A stretch of DNA of 64,000 nt from a virus. Positions 1,159 to 51,501 of the stretch are shown here, in pieces (position 1 is the first letter of the stretch; each line of letters begins with the position of its first letter). Made by a program: the position numbers and the translations under genes. Location of the stretch: the IMG/VR virus record IMGVR_UViG_3300021963_009388, positions 1 through 64,000 of that record. One strand, 5' to 3'. The notes under the pieces were generated by a model. It had not been told where the DNA came from. It made no database searches and saw only the letters and a list, made by a program, of their open reading frames with translations.

Positions 1159-1414
1159 TTTTAACCAATGGGCAGTAGGCAAATCCCTAGAACAGATGCT
1201 TACTATCTTCTTAACAAACCGTTTAATAAGAATAGGCGACAAAGACATATGGCCGTCATCCATCGTAGTTAACGGATGCCACTATGAGTTCGTATTCAGA
1301 GTGGGCAACGAGCTAGATGAAGATAGAGGGTGGTGGTCTTTTAAAGATGAGCCTATGGTGTACAGCATCATGGCTACTGAAGAAGACATGCTAAGAGTAA
1401 GGGAAAAATTATGA
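1151..1414 (+). CDS. hypothetical protein
   Basis: MDDFNQW... ORF; its stop overlaps the first MIRK unit (ATGA). Confidence 0.6.
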   Translation: MDDFNQWAVGKSLEQMLTIFLTNRLIRIGDKDIWPSSIVVNGCHYEFVFRVGNELDEDRGWWSFKDEPMVYSIMATEEDMLRVREKL

Positions 1415-1590
1415 TAAGAAAAACAAATGCACATCCTATTTCTAAAGAATGGGAAAAATCTCGACTGTGTTCATGGATTAGTGGGTGGAGCACGTTTGAT
1501 TACAAATCAGCAAACGGAAAATTAAATTACACGTTTTCTGCACTAAACAATTGGTTTCATCACTCTCGTTGTTGGGGGGAGAGACCATGA
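1411..1590 (+). CDS. S/W-rich peptide 1 (MIRKTNAHP...CWGERP)
   Basis: Manual translation, 59 aa; ATGA overlaps at both ends. Confidence 0.7.
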   Translation: MIRKTNAHPISKEWEKSRLCSWISGWSTFDYKSANGKLNYTFSALNNWFHHSRCWGERP

Positions 1591-1790
1591 TAAGAAAAGT
1601 AATCGAATCTTCATCTTGGGGCTGGACTAGATCTGACCGAATTAGTTCGGCTCTGTCTAAATACGGCCGACGTACTATTCATTCTATTTGTTGGACTATG
1701 GCTAGAGATTCGTTTTGGGTTCACTTCGGGGCTTGGTCTAAGTCTAAGCATCAGTCTAGGTCGGGCCCTTGGTATGAAAGGGCTAGATAA
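1587..1790 (+). CDS. S/W-rich peptide 2 (MIRKVIESSSWGW...)
   Basis: ORF track, internal MIRK start; paralog of unit at 7800. Confidence 0.75.
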   Translation: MIRKVIESSSWGWTRSDRISSALSKYGRRTIHSICWTMARDSFWVHFGAWSKSKHQSRSGPWYERAR

Positions 1791-1939
1791 TGATAAGAAA
1801 AACACAACCTGCGTCTGTGGCTTGGGCTTGGTCTAGGTCTGGGTCTAGTTCTTGGTCTTGGTCTTGGCCTGGGTTTAATTCTTGGTCTTGGTCTAAGTCT
1901 AGGACTAATTCTTGGTGCTGGGAAAGGACCTCTCGATAA
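1790..1939 (+). CDS. S/W-rich peptide 3 (MIRKTQPASVAWAWSRSGSSSWSWSW...)
   Basis: Manual translation, 49 aa; TAATG overlap. Confidence 0.7.
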   Translation: MIRKTQPASVAWAWSRSGSSSWSWSWPGFNSWSWSKSRTNSWCWERTSR

Positions 1940-1989
1940 TAAGAAAAACAGTATGGGGTAAATCTAAGAGTTGGAGGATAGGAAGATGA
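1936..1989 (+). pseudogene. degenerate unit 4 (ATG>ATA; IIRKTVWGKSKSWRIGR)
   Basis: Start mutated; reads as the 5' end of unit 2237 joined to the 3' end of unit 2484 at AAATCTAAG. Confidence 0.55.
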
Positions 1990-2240
1990 GAATGAAATCA
2001 GTGTGGTGTGGGTCTAGGTCTTGGTCTAAGTCTAGCTTGTCTACTCCTATGATTGAGCCTCGCGCGTCTCAGTCTTGGTCTAGGGCTGGATGTACACCTG
2101 AGGCTTGGTCTGAGTTTGGCTCTTGGTCTAGAGCTTTTCATAAATGTAGGTATACGTGGTCTAATTGTTGGAGCCGTCTTGGGAATAGACTTGCGTATGC
2201 ATGCTGGCAAAAATCTTGGAATTGGAGAATACACCAATGA
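1986..2240 (+). CDS. S/W-rich peptide 5 (MRMKSVWCGSRSW...)
   Basis: ORF track; ATGA overlap. Confidence 0.7.
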   Translation: MRMKSVWCGSRSWSKSSLSTPMIEPRASQSWSRAGCTPEAWSEFGSWSRAFHKCRYTWSNCWSRLGNRLAYACWQKSWNWRIHQ

Positions 2241-2422
2241 TAAGAAAAACAGTATGGGGTAAATCTAAGTCTTGGAGCTGGGCGGAGGCCATATCGGGGA
2301 CTGGGTCTTGGGCTTGGTCTCGGACTTCGTTTAACTCTTGGTTTAGGCCAGGGGTGGTACCTTGGTCTAGGTCTTGGGTAAATCTAAAAGGAAATTCCGG
2401 CGCTTGGAGAATACACCAATGA
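2237..2422 (+). CDS. S/W-rich peptide 6 (MIRKTVWGKSKSW...)
   Basis: ORF track, internal MIRK start. Confidence 0.75.
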   Translation: MIRKTVWGKSKSWSWAEAISGTGSWAWSRTSFNSWFRPGVVPWSRSWVNLKGNSGAWRIHQ

Positions 2423-2487
2423 TAAGAAAAACAGGGTCTTGGTCTGGGTCTTGGTCTGGGTCTAAATGTTGGGAGAGCAGACTATGA
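2419..2487 (+). CDS. S/W-rich peptide 7 (MIRKTGSWSGSWSGSKCWESRL)
   Basis: Manual translation, 22 aa; coupled at both ends. Confidence 0.6.
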   Translation: MIRKTGSWSGSWSGSKCWESRL

Positions 2488-2669
2488 TAAGAAAAACAGT
2501 ATGGTTTGGGGCTGCGTCTTGGACTGACTCTTGGCGTGAGTCTGATTCTTGGTCTAAGTCTTTTAGCTGGTATAGATCTAGGGCTGGGTGCTGGGATGGG
2601 TCCAATTCTTGGAGTTGGACTTCTTCTAGATGCTTGGATAAATCTAAGAGTTGGGGGATAGGCCGATGA
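2484..2669 (+). CDS. S/W-rich peptide 8 (MIRKTVWFGAASW...)
   Basis: ORF track; paralog of unit at 8170. Confidence 0.75.
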   Translation: MIRKTVWFGAASWTDSWRESDSWSKSFSWYRSRAGCWDGSNSWSWTSSRCLDKSKSWGIGR

Positions 2670-2869
2670 TAAGAAAAATAAGGACCCATGAATCAAAGTG
2701 CTGGACAGATAGAAGACCTACATCATTCTCAGCGAACTATTACTTTATAGATCGTTCATGGAACTGGGGGTGGCAGCATTGTATGTCATCTCCTTGGTTA
2801 GGTATAGGCGGCTGGTGCAATAGTCTAAGCTCAGGAGGGTGGAGTTTAAACTATTGGAGAAACATTTGA
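2666..2869 (+). CDS. S/W-rich peptide 9 (MIRKIRTHESKCW...)
   Basis: ORF track, internal MIRK start. Confidence 0.75.
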   Translation: MIRKIRTHESKCWTDRRPTSFSANYYFIDRSWNWGWQHCMSSPWLGIGGWCNSLSSGGWSLNYWRNI

Positions 2870-3060
2870 TGATAAGAAAAATAGTCATATCCGGGTCCGT
2901 TTCATGGACAAATGATTTTGTCCGCAATAACAGGTGTTTTTTAAGCGACATGATGGCGGCATTTTCGTACATGAACACATCCACTAGGTCTGGAATTGGA
3001 AGTCAGAGCAACCGTGGTTGGTCTGTTTTAAGATCGCTGTCGTGGTCCAAACACCGATAA
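2869..3060 (+). CDS. S/W-rich peptide 10 (MIRKIVISGSVSW...)
   Basis: ORF track; TGATG overlap. Confidence 0.7.
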   Translation: MIRKIVISGSVSWTNDFVRNNRCFLSDMMAAFSYMNTSTRSGIGSQSNRGWSVLRSLSWSKHR

Positions 3061-3077
3061 CCTAACTAGGAGAACCA

Positions 3078-3299
3078 ATGATCAAAAGTACAGTTGGAAA
3101 CACTATGGCCCAAGGGTATAGCCGTGCATGGGGAACATTAAGTCGTACATGGGGCTTAACAAGCAGTGGTTCGTTTACAGAATCTAAAGTGCGTTCTACT
3201 ACAAAACTGTGGCGCGGCTGTAGAGGAGTAGTATGGTCTAGTTTAACTATATCTTCTTCGTCATGGAGCAGTAGATTTTCAGGGTCCGTAAGGAGCTAA
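3078..3299 (+). CDS. S/W-rich peptide 11 (MIKSTVG...)
   Basis: ORF track; AGGAG SD. Confidence 0.7.
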   Translation: MIKSTVGNTMAQGYSRAWGTLSRTWGLTSSGSFTESKVRSTTKLWRGCRGVVWSSLTISSSSWSSRFSGSVRS

Positions 3300-3300
3300 C

Positions 3301-3495
3301 ATGATAAGAAAACTTTTGTATCCATTGCATCAAAGTAAGATGTCCGTCTGCTGGACTAAGGACAAAAAGCTGAATAGGCTCTGGTCAGAAAACACGACCA
3401 TATCTGGACACAAGCATAGTGGTATAACGTGGGCTTGGGCTCACTTCAATCGCTTGCCTTGGTCCATATTAGAACCTTGGAGAGTTATTTCATGA
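3301..3495 (+). CDS. S/W-rich peptide 12 (MIRKLLYP...)
   Basis: ORF track; AAGGAG SD. Confidence 0.7.
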   Translation: MIRKLLYPLHQSKMSVCWTKDKKLNRLWSENTTISGHKHSGITWAWAHFNRLPWSILEPWRVIS

Positions 3496-3647
3496 TGATA
3501 AGAAGAAGAATACACCCACTTGATTCATCTAAATCATGGTCTGATCCCTGGTGTTACTCTTTGTCCGGGTCTGAAGATTATGCTTACTCTGTGTCTTGGT
3601 CGAATTGGTGTCAATGGGGTAAAAATAGTCACTCGGTTGGTTTTTAA
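3492..3647 (+). CDS. S/W-rich peptide 13 (MMIRRRIHP...SKSWSDPWCYS)
   Basis: ORF track; similar to unit 14. Confidence 0.7.
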   Translation: MMIRRRIHPLDSSKSWSDPWCYSLSGSEDYAYSVSWSNWCQWGKNSHSVGF

Positions 3648-3669
3648 ATAGGCTTTGGAGAGGTCGCTA

Positions 3670-3849
3670 ATGATACTAAAACGCAAAGCATACTTAATTG
3701 GAGACGTCTCCAAATCTTGGTCTGAGCCTTATTCTTACTCTGTGGCTTGGGCGGATGACTGGAGATGGAGTAGAGATTGGAAGAACGGTTGGTTTTTAAA
3801 CACGTTACGAGCCTACTATAGGCAGTCTAAAGGAGGACCTCGTGGTTGA
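3670..3849 (+). CDS. S/W-rich peptide 14 (MILKRKAY...SKSWSEPYSYS)
   Basis: ORF track; GGAGAGG SD. Confidence 0.7.
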   Translation: MILKRKAYLIGDVSKSWSEPYSYSVAWADDWRWSRDWKNGWFLNTLRAYYRQSKGGPRG

Positions 3850-4084
3850 ATGGAAACCTACTGAATATGATATAGGATGGCTGGACTCAGTCTTTAGAAT
3901 ATTAAAAGAAGGCGGGTCATGGATAGCTCCTATCACAGGGCAGATGTTTGAAAAACGAGGAAACCTTTTCGTTCTAATGAACGAAGATACTCCTGACACA
4001 AGACGCATCTTTGAGAGAAGCCAAGTAATAGGGCCTAAGATTGGTATTAAAGTTATTAAACTATCGGAGGTGGATAGTGCTTAG
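3842..4084 (+). CDS. hypothetical globular protein embedded in the array
   Basis: 80 aa of ordinary composition; AGGAGG SD. Confidence 0.7.
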   Translation: MVEWKPTEYDIGWLDSVFRILKEGGSWIAPITGQMFEKRGNLFVLMNEDTPDTRRIFERSQVIGPKIGIKVIKLSEVDSA

Positions 4085-4241
4085 ATCCCGTATGCATATG
4101 TCTCAATCCTGGTCTTGTGGGCGAAGCGCATCAAGAGCAGCATCAGATTTTTGGGGAGTATCCAATATTTTTGCTGGATGCTACTCTTGGAGCTGGGTAA
4201 ATAACTTGTCGATTTCAGAAAATTTTATGGAGTTTGAATGA
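4077..4241 (+). CDS. S/W-rich peptide 15 (MLRSRMHMSQSW...)
   Basis: GTG start after GGAGG; ATGA overlap with the next unit. Confidence 0.55.
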   Translation: MLRSRMHMSQSWSCGRSASRAASDFWGVSNIFAGCYSWSWVNNLSISENFMEFE

Positions 4242-4435
4242 TTAGAAGAACAGCAACAATCCCAGCTAGTTGGTTTGGTGCTTCTAATGCGTCCTGGGCT
4301 GTACTCCATATAGCAACATGGGGAAGGCCGTCATCGCCAAGGTTTCAATCAACTTCCCATTCACAAAGCTGGTATAGGTCTAGCAGCTGGGAAGATGATG
4401 GTTCTGCTAGTTACAATTGGAAATTAAGGAGGTAG
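4238..4435 (+). CDS. S/W-rich peptide 16 (MIRRTATIP...)
   Basis: ORF track. Confidence 0.7.
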   Translation: MIRRTATIPASWFGASNASWAVLHIATWGRPSSPRFQSTSHSQSWYRSSSWEDDGSASYNWKLRR

Positions 4436-4436
4436 T

Positions 4437-5033
4437 ATGAAAAACAAAGGATATGAAGCTTGGGTGGCGCGACTCAAGTTCTTCAACGGGGAATTCAATT
4501 TTGGCCCCGTTAAGCGCGTCTTAAATGAAGACGGGCGACTGCACTGCGACACGGGTCCAGCGTATGTTAGTCCTACTCGTATTATGTGGTATAAGAACGG
4601 CAGGCAGCACGGAATGGACGCCGACAAGTTCGGCAGTATTCTGTACTATTACGAGGGGGTGCGTATTCCTCCACATTTCTTTACCAAACCAGAGGATGTC
4701 ACTGTAGAGGAGGTCTTAAGGCATCCTAACGCAGAAGTAAAATATGTTGGTATGAAGATAGTTGGGCTGGACAACATCATGTCTATGCCTACAACAAAAG
4801 TAGTGCATAGAGACGTGGATCAGTTCGGCAGAGAAAGAGTTCTCTTTCAGATCCCAAAGATCTTTGAGGAACCAACTCTTTATGTTAAAGTTGTTAATTC
4901 TACGGCGGAGCCAGATGGTAGTTTTAAAAATTACTTTCTGTGCGTCCCGCCAAACGTGAAAACGTGTGTCGAGGCGGTGGCGTGGACAAACTATATGAAG
5001 GCAGATAAGTATGCTCCTTCACAAGAATCTTAG
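4437..5033 (+). CDS. DUF6745-like protein
   Basis: GRLHCDTGPA...WYKNG repeats and C-terminal VVNSTAEPDGSFKNYFLCVPP...EAVAWT. Confidence 0.65.
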   Translation: MKNKGYEAWVARLKFFNGEFNFGPVKRVLNEDGRLHCDTGPAYVSPTRIMWYKNGRQHGMDADKFGSILYYYEGVRIPPHFFTKPEDVTVEEVLRHPNAEVKYVGMKIVGLDNIMSMPTTKVVHRDVDQFGRERVLFQIPKIFEEPTLYVKVVNSTAEPDGSFKNYFLCVPPNVKTCVEAVAWTNYMKADKYAPSQES

Positions 5034-5054
5034 TTTTAATCAAAGGAATTAGTT

Positions 5055-5381
5055 ATGAAGAAGTTTCAAGCGCGTCAGGGTGATATTTTCTTTAGGGTTG
5101 TTAAGAAGCCAGCGGGCTTAGCTAAGCTAAAGCCATTGGGCAGTAAGATATTGGCGTTCGGCGAGGTGACTGGCCACAGTCATCAAATTACTTCAGCAAA
5201 TGAAGTGGGTTCTTTTGTAGATGAGAAAGGAGATATCTATCTCTTCTCTGCAGAGGAGACTGTCGTGGGTCATGACGAGCACTCAAATATTACGCTCCCT
5301 AAGGGATCGTGGGTGTGCGTGACACGTCAGCGAGAGTATGATCCGCTAGCTGCTGAGAAAGAGCGAAAGGTAGCAGACTAG
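5055..5381 (+). CDS. conserved phage protein with RQGD / GEVTGHSH / HDEH / RQREY motifs (putative metal-binding)
   Basis: Motif pattern recalled from small proteins encoded beside DUF6745 genes. Confidence 0.7.
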   Translation: MKKFQARQGDIFFRVVKKPAGLAKLKPLGSKILAFGEVTGHSHQITSANEVGSFVDEKGDIYLFSAEETVVGHDEHSNITLPKGSWVCVTRQREYDPLAAEKERKVAD

Positions 5382-5620
5382 TGATAAGGAAAGCACTATT
5401 TGGAAACTCGTATAACTGGAGCTTATCAAGCTCCAGTTATAACGTTTCAGAAGTAAGAGATACATTCTACGGATCAACTACTTCGTTCTCTTGGCCTAAC
5501 TGTCCTTGGATGTTTTCCACTAGCTGGTCTTCTTCTGGACTAGCCTGGTCATGGAATTGGTCAGGTGGAGTGCATACATCTTGGGGTTGGAAAGAAGGAA
5601 ATGCAGTGTGGGACAGTTAA
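5381..5620 (+). CDS. S/W-rich peptide 17 (MIRKALFGNSYNW...)
   Basis: GTG start overlapping the previous TAG. Confidence 0.7.
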   Translation: MIRKALFGNSYNWSLSSSSYNVSEVRDTFYGSTTSFSWPNCPWMFSTSWSSSGLAWSWNWSGGVHTSWGWKEGNAVWDS

Positions 5621-5676
5621 GGGTGGAGTCTAAGTAATTAAAATATTGTTAGCTATATAGACAAGTTTAGCTTACG

Positions 5677-5707
5677 GGGGTAGCAGATGTTCTGCTGCCC
5701 CTTTTTT
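5677..5707 (+). terminator. rho-independent terminator
   Basis: GGGGTAGCAGA-TGT-TCTGCTGCCCC followed by T6. Confidence 0.7.
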
Positions 5708-5736
5708 GTTTGAATCACATTCAAGGAGTTGTAATT

Positions 5737-6054
5737 ATGGCTAAGGTTAAAAGCAAAGTGTCTTTAGTTGAGATCGATGGCGCAGCTGCAGCTAGCATGG
5801 CGCAAGTGGCACAGCAGTTTCTTGGGCAGCCGGTAGCGGTGTTATGTGCGCGGTACAACTACCGTGGGATTCTATCTCACGTGGGTGAAGATTGCTTGGT
5901 GCTTGCGCAAGCAAGAGCTGTCGAGACTTCTGGCGCTTCTAGTCAAGAAACACCGAACACTGAAGATCCGATTGGATCTTCTGTGATCATCTCCCTCGGT
6001 GCAGTCGAAATTATTTATCAACCAAGATGGTGCTTTGCACCATTGGATGCGTAA
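5737..6054 (+). CDS. putative Sm/LSm-like beta-barrel protein
   Basis: FLGQPVAVLCARYNYRGILSHVGEDCLVLAQA resembles the Sm1 motif; AAGGAG SD. Confidence 0.55.
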   Translation: MAKVKSKVSLVEIDGAAAASMAQVAQQFLGQPVAVLCARYNYRGILSHVGEDCLVLAQARAVETSGASSQETPNTEDPIGSSVIISLGAVEIIYQPRWCFAPLDA

Positions 6055-6302
6055 TGAGGACGCATACTAGACCGGGAAGGCCTTTTGACAACCCAATTCT
6101 AGGCCCGACTTTTTCGTGGACGCAGGATAAGTTACATGGCTGGCCCTACCCTGCTAAGTCCTGCGAATGGGCAAGGGGAGTGAGATTTAATAGGGCTTGG
6201 AAATCAGCTGAGTTTCTATCCATATCAACACTGAATAGGGACTCAAGCTATTCTTGGTCTAAGGGAATCCGAGGGTCTATAAAGACAAGGAACGGAGAAT
6301 GA
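6054..6302 (+). CDS. S/W-rich peptide 18 (MRTHTRPG...)
   Basis: TAATG overlap; W-rich. Confidence 0.6.
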   Translation: MRTHTRPGRPFDNPILGPTFSWTQDKLHGWPYPAKSCEWARGVRFNRAWKSAEFLSISTLNRDSSYSWSKGIRGSIKTRNGE

Positions 6303-6472
6303 TAAGGAAAATAGTACACGCTAGGACCAGATCTTGGGCTAATTATACGTATCAATCTTACTCTGGAACTTGGATCAAACCTGGTTGTCCTTGGGGAATA
6401 AATATGCCTTGGTCTTGGTCTTGGTCTTGGTGTAGACCTTGGAGTATGGAATCTTGGAGGACACCCCGATGA
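6299..6472 (+). CDS. S/W-rich peptide 19 (MIRKIVHARTRSW...PWSWSWSWC)
   Basis: Manual translation, 57 aa. Confidence 0.7.
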   Translation: MIRKIVHARTRSWANYTYQSYSGTWIKPGCPWGINMPWSWSWSWCRPWSMESWRTPR

Positions 6473-6714
6473 TAAGAAAAATAAGAAGAAGCACTGGAAT
6501 TGGAAAAGACTGCGAGGTTTCTAGTCTTTGGTCTAAGAGTTGGACTCTATCTGAGTCTGGGCGCCCAGGTGAGTTCAGTTCTAGCAATTGGGCTCAGTCG
6601 GAGGCTTTTCCTAGATATAACACAGAAAGGCACTTGTCTGAGTCTTCGACATCTTGGCGTTATAACCGGCATGACTCTTGGTATGACTTTTGGCATTGGA
6701 AGGATAACACATGA
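6469..6714 (+). CDS. S/W-rich peptide 20 (MIRKIRRSTG...)
   Basis: ORF track. Confidence 0.7.
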   Translation: MIRKIRRSTGIGKDCEVSSLWSKSWTLSESGRPGEFSSSNWAQSEAFPRYNTERHLSESSTSWRYNRHDSWYDFWHWKDNT

Positions 6715-6893
6715 TAAGAAACGCATGGACTGGGTCATCATACGCTTGGTCTACTTCTGGATACACGTCATGGGGCTTAACTAAGTATCGCCCTTCTCTA
6801 ATGCAGTCTGACCATTGGAATCATAATTGGTGTTTCAGTGGATGTTGGGCTGAAGATACAGACATGTCAGGCTCTTGGAGGATGCACATGTGA
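6711..6893 (+). CDS. S/W-rich peptide 21 (MIRNAWTGSS...)
   Basis: ORF track. Confidence 0.7.
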   Translation: MIRNAWTGSSYAWSTSGYTSWGLTKYRPSLMQSDHWNHNWCFSGCWAEDTDMSGSWRMHM

Positions 6894-7114
6894 TAAGAAG
6901 AGCATTGCTCGGTAAATCTGGTTCTTGGATTAAATTTCGATCTGAGTCTGAGTTTTTGTACTCAACAATTTGCTCCCAAGCTTGGAGTATGCCCTATGAT
7001 GGGGCTAATGCTTGGACTAGCTCTTGGCGTAAGTCTTCGAGTTGGGTTGGAAGAAGGTTTGGCTCCAGGTTTGACTCCAGGCCTGACTCCAGGTCTTGGA
7101 GGCATCAAATATGA
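6890..7114 (+). CDS. S/W-rich peptide 22 (MIRRALLGKSGSW...)
   Basis: GTG start with GTGA overlap; paralog of unit at 8525. Confidence 0.7.
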   Translation: MIRRALLGKSGSWIKFRSESEFLYSTICSQAWSMPYDGANAWTSSWRKSSSWVGRRFGSRFDSRPDSRSWRHQI

Positions 7115-7299
7115 TAAGAAGACCAGTGACAACAAATGGGCGCTCCCAGTGTTGGGCTAGAGATCAAGAAATGTCTTGGAGCGAAAGAAGGTATACGCCT
7201 TGGCCGCGTTATGCAGAGTGCTGGATACTGGAGTGGTGCTGGAGTGGGCTTTGGGAAACTGATGGAACCTACTCGGAGTTATGGGGGGAAAATATATGA
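7111..7299 (+). CDS. S/W-rich peptide 23 (MIRRPVTT...)
   Basis: ORF track. Confidence 0.7.
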   Translation: MIRRPVTTNGRSQCWARDQEMSWSERRYTPWPRYAECWILEWCWSGLWETDGTYSELWGENI

Positions 7300-7490
7300 T
7301 AATGATAATGAAATGTCTACCTGACGCTAGGCTCCGAGATAGGCCCATCTCCCAGTCTTGGACTCTAAACCGGCATTGGTCTAGGGCTATGTTCTTGCCT
7401 TGGTCCAGCATCAATGTTTGGTTTTGGTCTGATTCTTGGAGTATAGACGAGACCTGCTCAGATTCTTGGATGCGGAGGAATAACGAATGA
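7296..7490 (+). CDS. S/W-rich peptide 24 (MIMIMKCL...)
   Basis: ORF track. Confidence 0.65.
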   Translation: MIMIMKCLPDARLRDRPISQSWTLNRHWSRAMFLPWSSINVWFWSDSWSIDETCSDSWMRRNNE

Positions 7491-7642
7491 TAAGAAGATT
7501 TATATTTCCTAAGTCTGAGTCTTGGTCTCAAAACGGGAGTTGGGGTTCCAACTCTGGGCTTAGAATTTATAGCTCGGCTTGGAGCATAGAAGAATTCTGG
7601 TCTACGTGTTGGGCTATGGAGCGAGACTGGAGTAATAAATGA
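7487..7642 (+). CDS. S/W-rich peptide 25 (MIRRFIFPKSESW...)
   Basis: Manual translation, 51 aa. Confidence 0.7.
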   Translation: MIRRFIFPKSESWSQNGSWGSNSGLRIYSSAWSIEEFWSTCWAMERDWSNK

Positions 7643-7803
7643 TAAGAAAAGCGTTGTCTAGTTCTTGGTCTAGGTCTAAGTCTAGCTCTTGGTATAGTGC
7701 TAGGTCTTGGCCTGTGCATTTGTCTTGGTCTAGGTCTATGTCTAGGTCTATGTCTTGGTCTTGGTCTTGGTATGGGGATAGTCCTTGGAGGGCACACAGA
7801 TGA
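7639..7803 (+). CDS. S/W-rich peptide 26 (MIRKALSSSWSRSKS...)
   Basis: Manual translation, 54 aa. Confidence 0.7.
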   Translation: MIRKALSSSWSRSKSSSWYSARSWPVHLSWSRSMSRSMSWSWSWYGDSPWRAHR

Positions 7804-8006
7804 TAAGAAAAGCAAGTGAACATGGGTCTTGGAGCTGGACTAGATCTGACCGCCTTAGTTCAGATATGTTTAGCCCCCACTCTGGTATTCATTCTATTTG
7901 TTGGGCTATGACTAGGGATTCGTTTTGGACTCGCTTCGGGGCTTGGTGTAAGTCTAGGCATCGATCTGAGTCTGGCCCTTGGTATGAAAGGACTCGTAAA
8001 TGGTAA
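7800..8006 (+). CDS. S/W-rich peptide 27 (MIRKASEHGSWSW...)
   Basis: ORF track; paralog of unit at 1587. Confidence 0.75.
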   Translation: MIRKASEHGSWSWTRSDRLSSDMFSPHSGIHSICWAMTRDSFWTRFGAWCKSRHRSESGPWYERTRKW

Positions 8007-8173
8007 GAAAAACAAAATGTATTTTTGCTACGACTTTTTCTAAAGGTTGCGCTAGAGCTTATTCTTGGTCTAAAAGTTTTCCTAGGAATGGGTCTAGGGT
8101 TTGGTATAAGTTCGAGTCTGGGTCTTGGACTAATACTTGGGAAAAGTCTAGATGCTGGAGAAGCTCTCGATGA
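8000..8173 (+). CDS. S/W-rich peptide 28 (MVRKTKCIF...)
   Basis: Manual translation, 57 aa. Confidence 0.7.
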   Translation: MVRKTKCIFATTFSKGCARAYSWSKSFPRNGSRVWYKFESGSWTNTWEKSRCWRSSR

Positions 8174-8374
8174 TAAGAAAAGCAGTATGGCTTGGGGCTG
8201 CGGCTTGGGGCTGCGGCTTGGTCTGAGTCTTGGCGTGAGTCTGAATCTTGGGTCGAAGGTGAAAGATGGCCTCAATATAGATTTAGGGCTGATTTACTTG
8301 ATGTGTCTAAATCCTGGAGTCGGGATAGGACTCGGTATTGGAGTAGGTCTTTAAATTGGAGTATACGACGATGA
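8170..8374 (+). pseudogene. unit 29, frameshifted by a 13-nt tandem duplication
   Basis: GGCTTGGGGCTGC x2 (8189-8214); removing one copy restores MIRKAVWLGAAAWSESWRES... Confidence 0.7.
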
Positions 8375-8520
8375 TAAGAAAAGCTAACAACGGCTATCCC
8401 GTCTGGGATTGGCCTGGCTCTATAAGCTGGAAAAGGCCTTCGGCTAAATCGTCTTCTTGGTCTAGGTGCTGGGCTCTATCTTCTGTGTGGCGTACACGTA
8501 ACCCTAACCGTTGGGGATAA
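8371..8520 (+). CDS. S/W-rich peptide 30 (MIRKANNGYPVW...)
   Basis: Manual translation, 49 aa. Confidence 0.7.
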   Translation: MIRKANNGYPVWDWPGSISWKRPSAKSSSWSRCWALSSVWRTRNPNRWG

Positions 8521-8524
8521 ACAA

Positions 8525-8725
8525 ATGATGAAAAACACGTTATCTGCTAGGTCTAATTCTTGGATTTAATTTTGGAGCGAGTCTGAGTCTTTGTCATCGG
8601 TAATTTGCTCCCAAGCTTGGAGTGTTCCCTATGCTGCGTCTAGGATGTGGGCTAGCTCTTGGTGCGAGTCTTCGGGTTGGGGTAGAAGAAATTTTGACTC
8701 CAAGTCTTGGAGTAGTAGCTTATGA
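8525..8725 (+). pseudogene. unit 31 with in-frame TAA at 8567
   Basis: Paralog at 6890 has AAA at the equivalent codon; the frame continues to the TGA overlapping the next ATG. Confidence 0.65.
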
Positions 8726-8889
8726 TAAGAAAAACAGGGTGTTGGTATAAATATAAGTCTTGGTCTAAGTCTAGGTCTTGGTTTCGGAGTAAATCGGCGT
8801 CTGTGTTTGGGTCTTTGTTCTTACCTTGGTCTAGGTCTTGGCATTGGAATAACTCTATAGGTAACTTTAGCTCTAGCCCTTGGGAGTAA
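8722..8889 (+). CDS. S/W-rich peptide 32 (MIRKTGCWYKYKSW...)
   Basis: Manual translation, 55 aa. Confidence 0.7.
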   Translation: MIRKTGCWYKYKSWSKSRSWFRSKSASVFGSLFLPWSRSWHWNNSIGNFSSSPWE

Positions 8890-8895
8890 TAACGA

Positions 8896-9021
8896 ATGAT
8901 TAGAAAAGCGTGGAAAGGGCCTAACTCGTCTAGGTCTTGGTATTTTTGGAATTGGAGTCTAGGTCTCACCTGGTCTAGATGTTGGTCTATGGAACTGGTC
9001 TGGTGGAAAAAACAACGATGA
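8896..9021 (+). CDS. S/W-rich peptide 33 (MIRKAWKGP...)
   Basis: Manual translation, 41 aa. Confidence 0.65.
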   Translation: MIRKAWKGPNSSRSWYFWNWSLGLTWSRCWSMELVWWKKQR

Positions 9022-9206
9022 TACGAAAAGCATGTGCATGTGATAGCGATAGATCACAAGGATGGCAGAACGATAGAGGCAGCTCAGAGCTTTGGTTTAC
9101 AGACATGATGGATTGCTACACGCCGTCTTACTGTTGGAGCGCCCCATATTCGGGCGGCTGCAGCTGGGAGTGGAGGGCGGGAATGGCGAGCTCTTCTAAG
9201 TGGTAA
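9018..9206 (+). CDS. S/W-rich peptide 34 (MIRKACACD...)
   Basis: ORF track, internal MIRK start. Confidence 0.7.
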   Translation: MIRKACACDSDRSQGWQNDRGSSELWFTDMMDCYTPSYCWSAPYSGGCSWEWRAGMASSSKW

Positions 9207-9380: not shown

Positions 9381-10130
9381 ATGACTACTATCAAACGCGA
9401 AACTACTAAAGAATTCATGAAGAAAGCTCGTAAGATTAAAGAAGCAGTAAATATGAGCGGAGAGGCTGCAGCTATTACGTTAGAGAGCGCTAGCAAAATT
9501 GTACCGGTAAACTTTACGTTTGCCCCAGTAACTCTGCACACGCTTGAGTTTACGGTAGAAGGCACAACGCCTTTACTTGTAAACAACTTTGGACCAAAAA
9601 GCAGGCAGCAGATGTTAGACTCAATGCAGCCATCAAAGACAAAAGCAGCTAAAGGTGCAGCCCCTAGAAAAGATAAAGATCCAGAAGAAGAATATAATAA
9701 TGCGTTCTATCGACTTGAAGACGGTCGGCCTGGGTTTCCTCTGCTTGCTTTAAAGGCTGCGGCTATCTCAGCGTTAACCTCTAACAATCCTAAGCTAAGC
9801 CGCCCTGTAGCTCGCCAAATGTTCTTTATTCTGAACGATGAAGAAGGCGGAGAACTTACACCAGTTTACCACCCAAATGAAGTCGGACCGGTTATGAGGC
9901 AAGACCGTGTAAGAATCATGCTAGGCAAGCCTGATCTTCGCCACAGGCCTGAGTTCAAGAAGTGGGGCATTAAGTTTTCTGTAAGGTTTAACCCAGCCCA
10001 TATCACTGCTGAGCAGATGGCGCAACTTATTAGCCACAGCGGGCAGACCGTTGGTATCGGCGAATGGAGGCCTGAAAAAGGTGGAAGCCATGGAACCTAC
10101 TTAGTAGTAAACGAATTTTCATGGGAGTAA
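9381..10130 (+). CDS. stand-alone Cas7/RAMP-like protein
   Basis: N-terminal strand VEGTTPLLV, RPGFPLLALKAA, RPEFKKW, and C-terminal Gly-rich loop GQTVGIGEWRPEKGGSHG as in RAMP folds. Confidence 0.7.
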   Translation: MTTIKRETTKEFMKKARKIKEAVNMSGEAAAITLESASKIVPVNFTFAPVTLHTLEFTVEGTTPLLVNNFGPKSRQQMLDSMQPSKTKAAKGAAPRKDKDPEEEYNNAFYRLEDGRPGFPLLALKAAAISALTSNNPKLSRPVARQMFFILNDEEGGELTPVYHPNEVGPVMRQDRVRIMLGKPDLRHRPEFKKWGIKFSVRFNPAHITAEQMAQLISHSGQTVGIGEWRPEKGGSHGTYLVVNEFSWE

Positions 10131-10162
10131 TTTTACTAGGGTAATTACACAGGAGTAATCAA

Positions 10163-10666
10163 ATGGCAAAAAAGAAGAAAGAAAGCGTAGGGTTTGAGTA
10201 CAGAAAAGGCAGAGAAATACCTGGAGTAACGGCTAAAGAAGCTTACGAAGCCGTTCTAGACATAAGGGATAGAAACGGAGGTAAGCTTACCGCTGAAGCT
10301 CTGTTAGAATATAGCAGCAAACCTGGAGACACATTCTATAGTGTGTTCACTAGAGATAAAGACTTAGCGCAATACAAGTTAAACTTAATAGAAGCTGCTA
10401 GGATTTTAAACATAGTGCGCTTAGTTGCTAGAGTAGATAACCCTGACTCTAAAGTGTCTATTCAAGTTAAATATAGAGCTTTTGTAAACGTGCATAATTC
10501 AGTAGATGGGTCAGCTTACTACCCTACTATTGAAGTTGCTAAGACACCCGATCTTAACAACAAACATAAAGAGCAGTTGCTAGACAGAATTAAAACTCTT
10601 ATAGCAACTTACTCTAAATACGAAGAGTTATCTGAAATTCTTAATAAGATGAGATCAATATTGTAA
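10163..10666 (+). CDS. accessory protein of the RAMP locus
   Basis: 167 aa; AGGAG SD; lies between the RAMP gene and the array. Confidence 0.7.
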   Translation: MAKKKKESVGFEYRKGREIPGVTAKEAYEAVLDIRDRNGGKLTAEALLEYSSKPGDTFYSVFTRDKDLAQYKLNLIEAARILNIVRLVARVDNPDSKVSIQVKYRAFVNVHNSVDGSAYYPTIEVAKTPDLNNKHKEQLLDRIKTLIATYSKYEELSEILNKMRSIL

Positions 10667-10676
10667 AATGAGAATT

Positions 10677-10764
10677 CGTCTAAACCAGCTGTTCGGCTAC
10701 GGGTGATTTAATGCAGGCGCAGCCATAGTTCATAAAATTACGACTGTGCGGGCTGGTTTAGACG
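10677..10764 (+). ncRNA. structured leader upstream of the pentamer array
   Basis: Perfect 13-bp stem CGTCTAAACCAGC/GCTGGTTTAGACG enclosing an imperfect inner hairpin. Confidence 0.45.
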
Positions 10765-10787
10765 TTTATTTATACTGATAGCAACAA

Positions 10788-11255
10788 GGCAGGCGTGGTC
10801 CGGCGAGGCCGGTCGAGGCGTGGCGAGGCAGGCACGGCGGGGTCTGACGAGGCAGCTCGGGGCGGGGCGAGGCATGGCAGGCGAGGCGTGGCGCGGTCCG
10901 GCTGCGATCGGCTTGGCAGGCTAGGTGAGGCGCGGCCTGTTCGGGCGAAGCGCGGCAGGCATGGTGCAGTTTGGCGTGGTTAGGATCGGCAGGCGGGGCG
11001 AGGGCTGGCGCGGCGTGGCCAGGCGAGGCATGGCAGGCGAGGTTAGGCCGGGTGAGGTTAGGCGAGGTGCGGCACGGCAGGCTAGGCAAGGCGCTGTCCG
11101 GCTGGGCTCGGAATGGCGAGGCAGGCGTGGTACGGCAGGCGAGGCGTGGCGGAGCCCGGTGAGGTGCGGCAGGGCAGGCACGGCCAGGTGTGGCACGGCC
11201 CGGAGAGGCCTGGCAGGCACGGCAAGGCACGGCTAGGCTGTGTTGGACTAGGGCA
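10788..11255 (+). repeat. GGY-NN pentamer array, 12 units delimited by GGCA (putative guide-RNA array)
   Basis: Delimiters at 10788, 10827, 10876, 10915, 10954, 10988, 11032, 11076, 11120, 11134, 11173, 11212; every spacing is 4+5n. Confidence 0.85.
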
Positions 11256-11354
11256 GTTCAACATAGCTAAGGTACTCAGTAACCACGAGATCATCTATCG
11301 TCTACGATGTGAGGTAGGTGGGTTATTGGGTATCACTTTTTAAAGGAGCAATTT

Positions 11355-14732: not shown

Positions 14733-14837
14733 ACTACACCCTTTTGCTGGCCCTTGAATGGGCATAAATTGATAAGTTACTGTCAAGTTAACACAACACT
14801 CGTTAGCTTGGCAGTTTTTAAAATTTAAAAGCAATAG

Positions 14838-14893
14838 GGCCGTATGTGGCTGGGCAAGGCAAGGCAAGGGCAAGGCAGGGTGAGGCAAGGTAG
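14838..14893 (+). repeat. orphan GGY-NN mini-array
   Basis: GGCCG TATGT GGCTG GGCAA GGCAA GGCAA G GGCAA GGCAG GGTGA GGCAA GGTAG in AT-rich intergenic DNA. Confidence 0.65.
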
Positions 14894-14969
14894 ATTATTT
14901 AATGTACTATTGGGCCAACGTATAGCCCTTTTAGATTGTGTTAGGTGCCAAATCATGTATATAAATCAC

Positions 14970-50402: not shown

Positions 50403-50476
50403 GGACCGGGCGAAAGCCATAAAGACAGGGCTTCGGCCATATGGTTTCACATTTTTATCTACTTAAGGAGATGACT

Positions 50477-51136
50477 ATGGTAACTATTTCTTTGTCTTAC
50501 TCCCCCGCTAGCCTCGGCTTCCCAGCTGGGGAACGTTTGTTTCCAGTCGGAAAAATCGGCGTTCTGGTGCTGTACCCCGACAACATAGTTGGGGTATGGG
50601 GCCGCCGACCAGGCGGCTGGGTAAACCTGGTTGCCGGGGACCCCATCATTGAGCGTGGCCTCCTCAGGCCTATTCCCGCTTCGGCGGCGGCGGCGCAGAC
50701 TTTCTTTGAGAAGGAAAGTCTGGTCATTGGGCCGTTGACAGGGCCTTTGGTATTACCTCGCTTAATGGCGAGGATCCCAGAGGGGTTTGATCCCGCCGAT
50801 GCGGATCAGACTGCGTTGGAGAAGGCAGCCGGTTCGGATGACGGTGACGCAATGCTCTCGACGTTTGTTGAGAGTACGGTACGAGGCCCCGACGGCCTAT
50901 TTGTTCCGAGGGGGTTCATCCCAGGGCCAGTGGCCCTGGAGGACGTTTTCGAAGACGTCGGAGGTTTAGTAGGGGACGACGGCGTCCCCAAAGTTCAGCA
51001 GGTAACCCTGCAGGAACTTAGAAAGGCCCGCCTAGCAAGGCTGGCCTTCACAAAGCAAGCCCCATCCCCAGCTTTTGGGGAGAGGGCGAAGTTCGTTAAA
51101 TCGTTTAAGAAAGCCGTAGCTACCTTATACCGGTAG
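50477..51136 (+). CDS. hypothetical protein, GC-richer than neighbours
   Basis: AAGGAG SD; ORF track. Confidence 0.65.
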   Translation: MVTISLSYSPASLGFPAGERLFPVGKIGVLVLYPDNIVGVWGRRPGGWVNLVAGDPIIERGLLRPIPASAAAAQTFFEKESLVIGPLTGPLVLPRLMARIPEGFDPADADQTALEKAAGSDDGDAMLSTFVESTVRGPDGLFVPRGFIPGPVALEDVFEDVGGLVGDDGVPKVQQVTLQELRKARLARLAFTKQAPSPAFGERAKFVKSFKKAVATLYR

Positions 51137-51451
51137 TCTACGTAGGGGGGGGATAACCAAGAAGCTCCAAGCGCTATGGTTCTTGGAACAACTTCTTGAC
51201 TTCCCGGAGGTGGTGCGCCACATGGCTCCAACCCACAAGCCCGTGCAGAGTAAATACAAAACTCTGCATGAGCCTAGGTATTCTGATGCACCCTTACTGG
51301 AGGGTGCATTTGGCGCGGCTCGTCCGCCGACGTAAAGACCTATAGAGGTTCATACGTTGAGACCCAGGTCGGGTGTTCGGCTAACGGCTTGAAGCCGTGA
51401 ACACTAGCTTCATCGCTAGAGTGAGCGACCCGATAAACCAGGCCAATTCGT

Positions 51452-51491
51452 CATCTCGAAAAGAGGTGGCGAATTGGTTTTTTTTAGCTAT
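51452..51491 (+). terminator. terminator
   Basis: CCAATTCGTCATCTC...GAGGTGGCGAATTGG followed by a T-run and AGCTAT. Confidence 0.75.
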
Positions 51492-51501
51492 TAGGTGATC
51501 A

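What the first reader, a model, noticed from the sequence alone, without database searches (positions are those of the whole stretch)
9381..11255. Candidate RNA-guided system: stand-alone Cas7/RAMP-like gene, accessory gene and GGY-NN pentamer array
Seen: a RAMP-like protein (EGTTPLL strand; GIGEWRPEKGGSHG Gly-loop), a 167-aa partner and a roughly 470-nt GC-rich tract in an AT-rich genome. The tract parses as GGCA followed by n x (GGY-NN), with a minority of triplets deviating (e.g. GTC, AGC, GGA) but the 5-nt phase kept throughout. Units hold 7,9,7,7,6,8,8,8,2,7,7,~8 pentamers. The dinucleotides vary freely, e.g. unit 1 GT CC GA CG GA GT GA and unit 3 GA GT GC CC TG TC TT. There are no cas1/cas2 genes and no CRISPR repeats in the window. 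Established: Cas7 RAMPs polymerise on guide RNA with fixed periodicity. Inference: each GGCA-delimited unit is a guide in which GGY is the protein handle and the NN pairs spell a discontinuous target code, possibly against rival phages or host genes. From memory, unverified, a similar architecture has been reported as 'VIPR'.
Basis: partly seen in the sequence, partly recalled or inferred. Interest (0 to 1): 0.95.

Follow-up and report, generated by a model that had tools for sequence, protein, structure and literature searches.

The report
Phage VIPR system with staggered guide array
An uncultured freshwater phage carries a VIPR system, a recently described phage relative of CRISPR. It has a Cas7-like protein, a small partner gene and an array of 12 GGY-NN guide units, and one unit exactly matches the catalytic-site codons of a serine recombinase on a mobile element in planctomycete-like bacteria.

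Summary
It is described in three 2026 bioRxiv preprints (10.64898/2026.04.26.720920, .720927 and 2026.10.15.759431).

**Membership**
- The 249-aa protein matches the solved SUSP1 Vipr protein by sequence (PDB 36pp; E 4.8e-7 alone, 1.9e-15 as a clade profile).
- Its model has a Csm3/Cas7 fold, and it keeps the Arg and the Glu-Trp-Arg residues that hold GGY.
- The 463-nt tract is 74% GC. It parses as 12 GGCA-delimited units, and 67 of 83 pentamers are GGY-NN.
- This fits the published 'staggered' vrRNA array with a 1-nt overlap.
- Distant homologues in Mycobacterium and Gordonia phages carry the same arrays next to the gene.

**Variation**
- A 98%-identical sister phage shares some units and differs in others.
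- Lake metagenomes show units inserted or replaced.

**Target**
- Under the published 1-nt-skip rule, unit 7 matches 16 of 16 guide bases. Its 13-pentamer sister version matches 26 of 26.
- The match lies on the first conserved codons of a large serine recombinase.
- It recurs in 10 lake metagenome contigs and one Planctomycetaceae MAG, with variation only at skipped wobble bases.
- The other units gave no target above controls.

**Limits and verdict**
- Expression and RNA processing are untested.
- This is a new member of a known kind.

The parts
9381..10130 (+). vipr gene: 249-aa stand-alone RAMP (Cas7/Csm3-like) protein
   Evidence: - phmmer finds PDB 36pp_D 'SUSP1 Vipr protein' at E 4.8e-7. 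A profile of the clade finds the same chain at E 1.9e-15 over nearly its full length.
- The AF2 model has pLDDT 86. Foldseek's top hits are Csm3/Cas7 chains at E 7e-7.
- It matches phrog_4652 and no Pfam family.
- R189, E228, W229 and R230 align with SUSP1 R138, D177, W178 and R179.
10163..10666 (+). vap-like accessory gene, 167 aa, function unknown
   Evidence: - It lies 33 nt downstream of vipr.
- It has a weak homologue in the same position after vipr in Mycobacterium phage Donkeykong (gene 50, E 2e-5).
- Its family has about 76 cluster representatives of 145 to 190 aa.
- No Pfam or PDB relative was found, and the single-sequence fold was poor.
10677..10773 (+). Conserved leader element: a 13-bp long-range stem (10677-10689 pairing with 10752-10764) followed by a T-rich run. 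It is either the vap terminator or the array leader.
   Evidence: - The fold is.
- It is 93% conserved in the sister phage, with one compensatory pair: U-A in the window and G-C in L002.
- An RNA-library contig runs from this element into an array with different first pentamers.
10788..11250 (+). Staggered vrRNA array: 12 units, each GGCA followed by 2 to 9 GGY-NN pentamers
   Evidence: - The parse is, and the periodicity and composition statistics are.
- Units are shared with or differ from the sister phage L002.
- The array is polymorphic in lake DNA runs.
- The same kind of array sits beside vipr homologues in three actinophages.
11032..11075 (+). Unit 7 (GGCA plus 8 pentamers; NN = GA TA CG GA TA GA GC AC): guide against a large serine recombinase
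   Evidence: - It matches 16/16 under the 1-nt skip rule in 11 loci, against a shuffled-control maximum of 12 to 14.
- Its 13-pentamer version in L002 matches 26/26.
- Only a skip of 1 nt works.
11212..11262 (+). Terminal unit and conserved 3' end of the array, with a possible short hairpin (CTGTGTTG...CAACATAG)
   Evidence: It is conserved in L002, where the hairpin arms change together. The function was not tested.
14838..14938 (+). Possible solo vrRNA gene: about 9 GGY-NN pentamers (NN mostly AA), then a conserved tail and a hairpin with a T-run
   Evidence: - It is the only other GGY-pentamer run in the genome.
- The flanks are conserved in L002 while the pentamer NN differ.
- The terminator hairpin shows compensatory changes.

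Best explanation
This is a VIPR (Viral Interference Programmable Repeat) system of an uncultured freshwater phage. The genome record is 102 kb, and a sister record is 181 kb.

**Mechanism, taken from the published SUSP1 system (inferred here)**
- Vipr protomers polymerise on RNA from the array, one protomer per pentamer.
- They sequester each GGY and present the NN pairs.
- The NN pairs bind double-stranded DNA that reads NN-x-NN-x, and the bound filament blocks transcription.
- The array is of the 'staggered' kind. Units follow each other with a 4-nt GGCA step, equivalent to a 1-nt overlap. That step breaks the 5-nt register and so sets unit boundaries, giving guides of 6 to 9 pentamers with footprints of 17 to 26 bp.

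**Shown here by computation**
- Unit 7 is directed at the first conserved codons (RVASYSRYSTNLQ, the catalytic-serine motif) of a large serine recombinase of about 715 to 740 aa.
- That gene lies on a small integrated element. A conserved 207-aa gene sits beside it in at least four contig groups, and an AbiEii toxin gene in two.
- The element occurs in lake metagenome contigs and in a Planctomycetaceae MAG.
- The skipped bases fall on wobble positions.

**Inferred function**
- The phage silences the element's recombinase so that the element cannot excise or mobilise during infection, as shown for SUSP1 and its satellite.
- This also points to a planctomycete host.

**Not shown**
- Transcription and processing of the array, binding by Vipr, repression of the target, and the role of Vap.
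- The targets of the other ten units of six or more pentamers.
For: **Protein**
- It matches SUSP1 Vipr in the PDB by sequence.
- Its model has a Csm3/Cas7 fold.
- The GGY-contact residues R, E (for D), W and R are conserved in the window. Across 26 clade members the two Arg are invariant, Glu is in 24 and Trp in 22.

**Array**
- 67 of 83 pentamers are GGY, and the 5-nt periodicity has z = 7.
- GGCNN arrays with GGCAGGC junctions sit beside vipr homologues of 30 to 33% identity in phages Donkeykong, Pipp and ODay.
- Staggered arrays with a 1-nt overlap are described in the preprint.

**Variation**
- The sister phage, whose Vipr is 98% identical, shares units 1, 3 and the last one, and has other units that differ.
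- Lake DNA runs show a one-pentamer insertion and a unit replacement inside otherwise 95 to 99% identical flanks.
- Between unit 7 and its sister version, all 6 differences lie in GGY and none in the 16 NN bases.

**Target**
- The 26-base gapped pattern has 10 exact hits in metagenome contigs and 1 in GTDB genomes. All are in one gene family.
- The family carries Pfam Resolvase and Recombinase domains.
- The recombinases are only 71 to 76% identical to one another, yet keep all NN bases. 7 of the 12 skipped bases vary.
- Only the 1-nt skip matches.

**Other**
- No self-target was found.
- No Cas1 and no serine recombinase were found in the phage.
- The published parallel is SUSP1 vrRNA4, six units long, which silences a satellite's excision recombinase at codon-determining positions.
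Against: - Only one of the eleven units tested in the window's array has a demonstrable target. The others did not exceed shuffled controls in the phage genome, the sister record, the UBA969 MAG or exact IMG/VR scans.
- On its own the 16-base unit 7 pattern also gives chance hits: 2 unrelated families in IMG/VR and 1 in 267 Planctomycetales genomes. The case therefore leans on the longer sister guide.
- Units lack the conserved 3' tail or pseudoknot of the characterised type II vrRNAs.
- According to the preprint, staggered arrays were not among the architectures confirmed by small-RNA sequencing.
- The His that reads G1 in SUSP1 (H17) is Asn68 here, although 24 of 26 relatives keep His.
- The Vap fold and function are unknown.
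- The host assignment rests on one 5.7-kb MAG contig plus planctomycete-like neighbours. One neighbour is 45% identical to a UBA969 protein.
Confidence: 0.88

Rival explanations
1. This is a genuine VIPR locus, but the recombinase match is not its biological target. The array's real targets would be other phages that are not in the databases, and the recombinase motif matches because it is a widely conserved sequence.
For: - Ten of the eleven units tested have no identified target.
- The 16-base unit 7 pattern alone gives chance hits.
- Other units do not converge on the fetched parts of the recombinase-bearing contigs.
Against: - 26 of 26 specified bases match exactly in 11 loci of a single gene family. 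I estimate the chance expectation at far below one hit; the collection sizes are not stated, so this is my estimate.
- The variable positions are exactly the skipped ones.
- All differences between the two guide versions avoid the NN bases.
- The published SUSP1 case has the same logic.
Confidence: 0.08
2. The GC-rich tract is not an RNA guide array. It would be a simple-sequence or recombination hot-spot, or a coding region for a Gly/Arg/Ala-rich protein, that happens to sit next to a RAMP-like gene.
For: - ORFs of up to 154 aa can be drawn through the tract on both strands.
- The equivalent tracts are annotated as 'hypothetical protein' genes in phages Donkeykong and Pipp.
Against: - A 5-nt period with 4-nt steps is incompatible with a conserved reading frame.
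- Units are inserted, deleted and swapped in steps of 5 nt or of whole units.
- The NN bases of one unit spell a natural target in gapped register.
- Arrays sit on either side of vipr in different phages.
Confidence: 0.02
3. This is a degenerate or orphan CRISPR-Cas remnant: a lone Cas7/Csm3 left over from a type III or type I system.
For: Foldseek's best solved matches are Csm3 subunits of type III-A complexes.
Against: - Sequence identity to Csm3 is only 8 to 14%, whereas SUSP1 Vipr is found directly by sequence.
- There are no CRISPR repeats and no Cas1.
- The associated repeats are 5-nt GGY-NN units, not repeat-spacer units.
Confidence: 0.02

Closest known systems
VIPR systems (Vipr + vap + vrRNA), bioRxiv 10.64898/2026.04.26.720920; the 'staggered vrRNA array' architecture (Fig. 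S18 of that preprint)
   Same: - A minimal vipr-vap operon in a phage.
- A Vipr RAMP that keeps the G-loop and thumb residues holding GGY.
- GGY/NN pentamer repeats with hypervariable NN.
- A natural target that obeys the 1-nt skip rule, with skipped bases on wobble positions.
- No self-targeting.
- Units that abut with a one-base overlap.
   Different: - The host is an uncultured freshwater phage of 100 to 180 kb, probably infecting planctomycetes. It would not have been in the NCBI-based survey (my inference).
- There are twelve short units of 2 to 9 pentamers and no per-unit 3' tail.
- Asn replaces the His that reads G1.
- The Vap family could not be assigned to vap1-6.
- The VIPR type (I to VII) cannot be assigned from the text I could read.
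Escherichia phage SUSP1 type II VIPR (structures in 10.64898/2026.04.26.720927; biology in 10.64898/2026.10.15.759431)
   Same: - Homologous Vipr (PDB 36pp).
- A guide aimed at codon-determining positions of a mobile element's recombinase gene. SUSP1 vrRNA4 has six units and an 18-bp footprint.
   Different: - SUSP1 vrRNAs are about 100 nt, with 9 to 16 repeats and a conserved pseudoknot tail, and are transcribed as separate units.
- Here units are separated only by GGCA.
- The two Vipr proteins align with confidence mainly over the C-terminal 50 residues when compared singly.
- The target element here is a small recombinase-bearing island with a conserved 207-aa gene and, in two contexts, AbiEii. 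It is not a capsid-hijacking satellite with structural genes, as far as the fetched flanks show.
Class 1 CRISPR-Cas backbone subunits (Cas7/Csm3)
   Same: - An RRM-based RAMP fold with a glycine-rich loop and a thumb.
- Polymerisation along a guide RNA with fixed periodicity, known for the family and inferred here.
   Different: - The period is 5 nt with three bases sequestered, not 6 nt with one base flipped.
- There are no CRISPR repeats, no Cas1/Cas2 and no large or small subunits.
- The system is virus-encoded.

Membership tests
VIPR | Vipr protein homologous to characterised Vipr proteins | tested here: met
   PDB 36pp_D 'SUSP1 Vipr protein' is found at E 4.8e-7 with the single sequence and at E 1.9e-15 with a clade profile. 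The profile alignment covers chain residues 2-190 of 202.
VIPR | Minimal RAMP fold (RRM core, G-loop, thumb) | tested here: met
   - The AF2 model has pLDDT 86.
- 74 PDB chains match at E<=1e-3, and the top ones are Csm3/Cas7.
- The G-loop GIGEWRPEKGG aligns with SUSP1 GVGDWRPRFG.
- Individual domains were not dissected.
VIPR | Residues that read GGY in SUSP1 (H17, R138, D177, W178, R179) | tested here: inconclusive
   R189, E228 (for Asp), W229 and R230 are conserved. The H17 equivalent is Asn68 in the window, although it is His in 24 of 26 clade members.
VIPR | Adjacent tandem YNNGG/GGYNN repeats (at least 4 units) | tested here: met
   There are 83 pentamers, 67 of them GGY, starting 122 nt downstream of vap. 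The periodicity has z = 7.1.
VIPR | NN hypervariable while GGY and flanks are conserved among related loci | tested here: met
   - Comparison with the sister phage L002.
- Unit replacement and a pentamer insertion in lake DNA runs.
- Arrays in three actinophages with unrelated NN content.
VIPR | Two-gene vipr-vap locus without a CRISPR array or adaptation genes, in a virus | tested here: met
   - ORF map.
- IMG/VR virus record with phage replication genes.
- No Cas1 and no CRISPR-like repeats.
- A vap homologue sits after vipr in Donkeykong.
VIPR | Natural targets follow the 1-nt skip (NNx) rule; no self-targets | tested here: met
   - Unit 7 matches 16/16 and its sister version 26/26 with a skip of 1 only.
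- No self-hit exceeded the controls, apart from a marginal 13/14 for the terminal unit.
- This was met for one guide family only. The other units are unresolved.
VIPR | Array transcribed into discrete vrRNAs that bind Vipr | not testable with these tools
   The only hint is weak. In one lake metatranscriptome, assembled contigs cover the leader-to-array junction and the array's 3' end but not vipr or vap. Contigs cannot show RNA ends, and DNA carry-over is possible.
VIPR type II (SUSP1-like) | Each vrRNA ends in a conserved structured 3' tail (pseudoknot) | tested here: not met
   Units are separated only by GGCA, and Rfam finds no ribozyme or known RNA between them. The locus is therefore filed under the staggered-array architecture, not type II.
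CRISPR-Cas class 1 | Repeat-spacer array plus cas1/cas2 and further effector subunits | tested here: not met
   No CRISPR-type repeats and no Cas1. The only neighbouring ORF is the 167-aa vap.

The most novel reading that the evidence does not exclude
In staggered arrays the one-base register slip at GGCA|GGC may itself be the unit delimiter. It would stop one Vipr filament and start the next on a single long transcript, so no tail, ribozyme or dedicated nuclease would be needed.

The same invariant GGCAGGC junction may also be the site where whole guide cassettes are exchanged, truncated or extended between co-circulating phages. Examples are unit 7 (8 pentamers) against its 13-pentamer sister version, and unit 2 against its 11-pentamer sister version with a different 5' end.

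That would be a recombination-based, Cas1-independent way of updating a guide repertoire.
Probability: 0.2. Interest if true: 0.7.

Novelty: new member of a known kind. Interest (0 to 1): 0.5.

Why it matters
VIPR was described only in 2026, and its code has been demonstrated for the E. coli and Pseudomonas type II systems.

This locus is a natural example from a very different setting: a large freshwater phage with a staggered array.
- The published 1-nt-skip rule, applied blind, recovers a perfect 26-base target with wobble-aligned skips.
- That is independent computational support that the code also holds for staggered arrays. The first preprint did not confirm that architecture by RNA sequencing.
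- A second phage lineage aiming VIPR at a mobile element's recombinase suggests that silencing recombinases is a recurrent strategy.
- The target match also gives a host lead (Planctomycetaceae) for a phage that has no cultured relative.

Tried and rejected
- **Self-targeting.** All window and L002 units were scored against the 102-kb genome with skips of 0 to 3 nt, and nothing exceeded the shuffled controls. The one exception was a marginal 13/14 for the terminal unit at 80723, which I did not pursue.
- **Exact NNx scans of IMG/VR for units 2, 6, 7, 8 and 11.**
  - Hits were few and fell in unrelated families, consistent with chance, and other units did not converge on them.
  - The best was unit 2 and its sister version, at 16/18 and 20/22, on a terminase large subunit of low-GC viral contigs L010, L014 and L023. 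It was not significant given five independent families with the 16-base core.
- **Full 26-base pattern in IMG/VR.** No hits. The targets are in cellular contigs.
- **Units 6, 8 and 11 and sister units X3 and X8 against the UBA969 MAG and the sister phage record, with mismatches allowed.** Only a 15/16 hit for unit 6 turned up, in an unrelated gene, at about the chance level.
- **Does the junction pentamer GGCAG contribute an 'AG' to pairing?** The recombinase target does not continue with x-AG, so for this guide it apparently does not.
- **Own-genome near match of the sister guide (18/26 at 51153).** It is within the control range and was not taken as a diverged self-site.
- **Vap.**
  - No Pfam, PDB or atlas family carrying a Pfam domain was found.
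  - The single-sequence AF2 model was unusable at pLDDT 40.
- **RNA evidence.** One metatranscriptome run holds 5% of the sampled words, and its contigs lie over the array's ends only. I do not count this as evidence of expression.
  - The search for related loci with the alignment failed for lack of a conserved stretch.
- **Array parser.** My simple GGCA parser did not give clean unit lists for the actinophage arrays. I rely on the run scan instead.
Full report
**1. Observation**

The window is the first 64 kb of a 102,495-bp IMG/VR virus record, estimated 87% complete. It carries phage replication genes: DNA polymerase, DnaB-like and other helicases, SbcCD-like and a UvsX-like recombinase.

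At 9381-10130 there is a 249-aa ORF, and at 10163-10666 a 167-aa ORF. After a conserved hairpin comes a 463-nt tract (10788-11250) at 74% GC in a genome of about 43% GC.

- Read as GGCA followed by pentamers, the tract gives 12 units.
- 67 of 83 pentamers begin with GGY, while positions 4 and 5 use all four bases.
- The 5-nt spacing of GG is 7 standard deviations above Markov simulations.
- The only other such run in the genome is a short one at 14828-14909.

Two small corrections apply: one ambiguous junction between units 10 and 11, and the phase is kept within units but slips by one base at each GGCA.

**2. What it is**

Three 2026 bioRxiv preprints describe Viral Interference Programmable Repeat systems. 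Each has a minimal RAMP protein (Vipr), an accessory gene (vap) and vrRNAs made of alternating GGY/NN pentamers. Vipr polymerises on the RNA one protomer per repeat and hides GGY, and the NN pairs read double-stranded DNA with one base skipped between pairs. Seven types and several array architectures are listed, including 'staggered arrays' in which successive vrRNAs overlap by 1 nt.

*Protein*
- The window's protein finds the solved SUSP1 Vipr chain (PDB 36pp_D) directly by sequence at E 4.8e-7.
- A profile of 26 clade members aligns to nearly the whole chain at E 1.9e-15.
- An AlphaFold model with pLDDT 86 has Csm3/Cas7 subunits as its best solved matches.
- The residues that hold GGY in SUSP1 are R138, D177, W178 and R179. 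They correspond to R189, E228, W229 and R230 here.
- The His that reads the first G (H17) is Asn68 in this protein, although it is His in 24 of 26 relatives.

*Array architecture*
- The GGCA step equals a GGCAG pentamer whose last G is the first G of the next unit, which is the 1-nt overlap described for staggered arrays.
- Homologues of only 30 to 33% identity in Mycobacterium phage Donkeykong and Gordonia phages Pipp and ODay have GGCNN arrays with the same GGCAGGC junctions immediately beside the gene. The array is upstream in one phage and downstream in two.
- In two of these phages the arrays are annotated as hypothetical proteins.
- Rfam finds no ribozyme or other known RNA in the locus.

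*Vap*
- The gene after vipr in Donkeykong is a weak homologue of the window's 167-aa protein.
- That protein belongs to a family of about 76 cluster representatives with no Pfam or PDB relative.
- Its fold could not be obtained.

**3. Variation**

A 181-kb IMG/VR contig (L002) encodes a 98%-identical Vipr. Its leader, its first and third units and its last unit match those of the window. Other units are unique to one phage or the other, and some are length variants.
- Window unit 7 equals the last 8 pentamers of a 13-pentamer unit in L002.
- Window unit 2 shares 8 pentamers with an 11-pentamer unit in L002.
- Between unit 7 and its sister there are six substitutions, all in GGY positions and none in the 16 NN bases. 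I calculate about a 3.5% chance of that arising by random placement.

Lake-water DNA runs from several studies hold the flanks at 95 to 99% identity. Inside the array they show a one-pentamer insertion, a unit replacement and many divergent ends.

**4. Target**

No unit matches the phage's own genome above shuffled controls at any skip length.

I wrote the 13-pentamer sister guide as an NNx pattern with 26 specified bases. It gave no hit in IMG/VR. It gave 10 exact hits in metagenome contigs and 1 in the GTDB genome set, the latter on a contig of Planctomycetaceae bacterium UBA969.

- All 11 hits lie in one gene, on the strand opposite to the guide sense. They cover the codons for V-A-S-Y-S-R-Y-S-T-N-L-Q at the start of the Resolvase domain of a large serine recombinase of 714 to 742 aa.
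- These recombinases are only 71 to 76% identical to one another, yet all 26 guide-read bases are kept. This is partly by construction, because the search was exact.
- 7 of the 12 skipped bases vary, and they are third codon positions.
- In the flank that runs into the gene, the same three-base rhythm of variation continues. Toward the gene start, all phases vary. The site is therefore the first conserved stretch after the start codon.
- Window unit 7 matches 16/16 at the same site in all 11 loci, against shuffled controls of at most 14.
- Skips of 0, 2 or 3 nt give only 11/16 and 15 to 17 of 26.
- In two different sequence contexts the recombinase lies beside an AbiEii toxin gene. In at least four contig groups it lies beside a conserved 207-aa gene. 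In the 85-kb and 328-kb contigs it is flanked by ordinary chromosomal genes.
- The phage itself has no resolvase-family gene.
- Among 267 genomes of the order, only UBA969 carries the site, plus one unrelated chance hit.

**5. Mechanism**

The most likely mechanism is as follows.
- The array is transcribed from the region of the conserved leader.
- Vipr filaments assemble on each GGY-NN run and end where the register slips at GGCA.
- Each filament binds DNA reading NNx. The unit 7 filament sits on the 5' end of the recombinase gene and blocks its transcription, which keeps the element from excising during infection.

This last step is modelled on the SUSP1 work, in which a six-unit vrRNA with an 18-bp footprint silences a satellite's excision recombinase at codon-determining positions.

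*Shown here:* homology, fold, array structure, array variation and the target match.
*Inferred:* transcription, processing, binding, repression, the biological role and the host.

**6. What remains open**
- Ten of the eleven units tested have no identified target.
- Exact scans of IMG/VR for five units gave only scattered hits at chance level.
- Searches of the UBA969 MAG with mismatches allowed gave nothing convincing.
- One lake metatranscriptome has assembled contigs over the leader-to-array junction and the array's 3' end but none over vipr or vap. This is only a hint.
- The VIPR type cannot be assigned, because the type-defining figures and data files are not held as text.

**7. Verdict**

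This is a real VIPR system of the published staggered-array architecture, so it is a new member of a known kind. The added value has three parts:
- a blind, exact natural target that extends the 1-nt-skip code to this array class;
- a second case of recombinase targeting;
- a host lead.

Interest is moderate.

Noticed in passing
window 1411-9206: About 30 tandem units, each with GGAGG then ATGATAAGAAAAGC (M-I-R-K) followed by hexamer repeats TCT-NGG (Ser-Trp, Ser-Arg). They are chained by ATGA overlaps and lie directly upstream of vipr. The near-exclusive use of TCT for Ser and the strict 6-nt DNA repeat suggest conservation at the nucleotide level as much as the peptide level.
   Followed up: partly
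window 14838-14938: A stand-alone run of about 9 GGY-NN pentamers (NN mostly AA) with a conserved upstream region, a conserved tail and its own hairpin with a T-run. In the sister phage the flanks are conserved but the NN differ. It looks like a solo vrRNA gene. Its AAxAAx target would be of low complexity.
   Followed up: partly
L003 2479-2840 (Mycobacterium phage Donkeykong gene 48); L004 3637-3873 (Gordonia phage Pipp gene 43): The annotated 'hypothetical protein' genes coincide with GGCNN pentamer arrays next to vipr homologues. They are probably non-coding vrRNA arrays mis-called as genes.
   Followed up: partly
window 10677-10773: A long-range 13-bp stem enclosing about 60 nt, followed by a T-rich run, lies between vap and the array. 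It is conserved in L002 with one compensatory base pair. In an RNA-library contig from another strain the same element is joined to a different upstream sequence and a different first array unit.
   Followed up: partly
window 50441-51500: An island of about 60% GC in a 43% GC genome, containing a 231-aa ORF of unusual composition. Its origin is unknown.
   Followed up: no
L029 5170-8929; L028 1733-5448; L035: A small integrated element in planctomycete-like lake contigs. It holds a large serine recombinase with two C-terminal HTH domains, a conserved 207-aa gene (90 to 93% identical across contexts, more conserved than the recombinase) and, in some copies, an AbiEii toxin gene.
   Followed up: partly
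L010, L014, L023 (IMG/VR contigs, 37-38% GC): A terminase large-subunit gene matches window unit 2 at 16/18 and its sister version at 20/22 in NNx register, in frame, just upstream of the nuclease motif. This is above the preprint's 80% cut-off but not distinguishable from chance here.
   Followed up: partly
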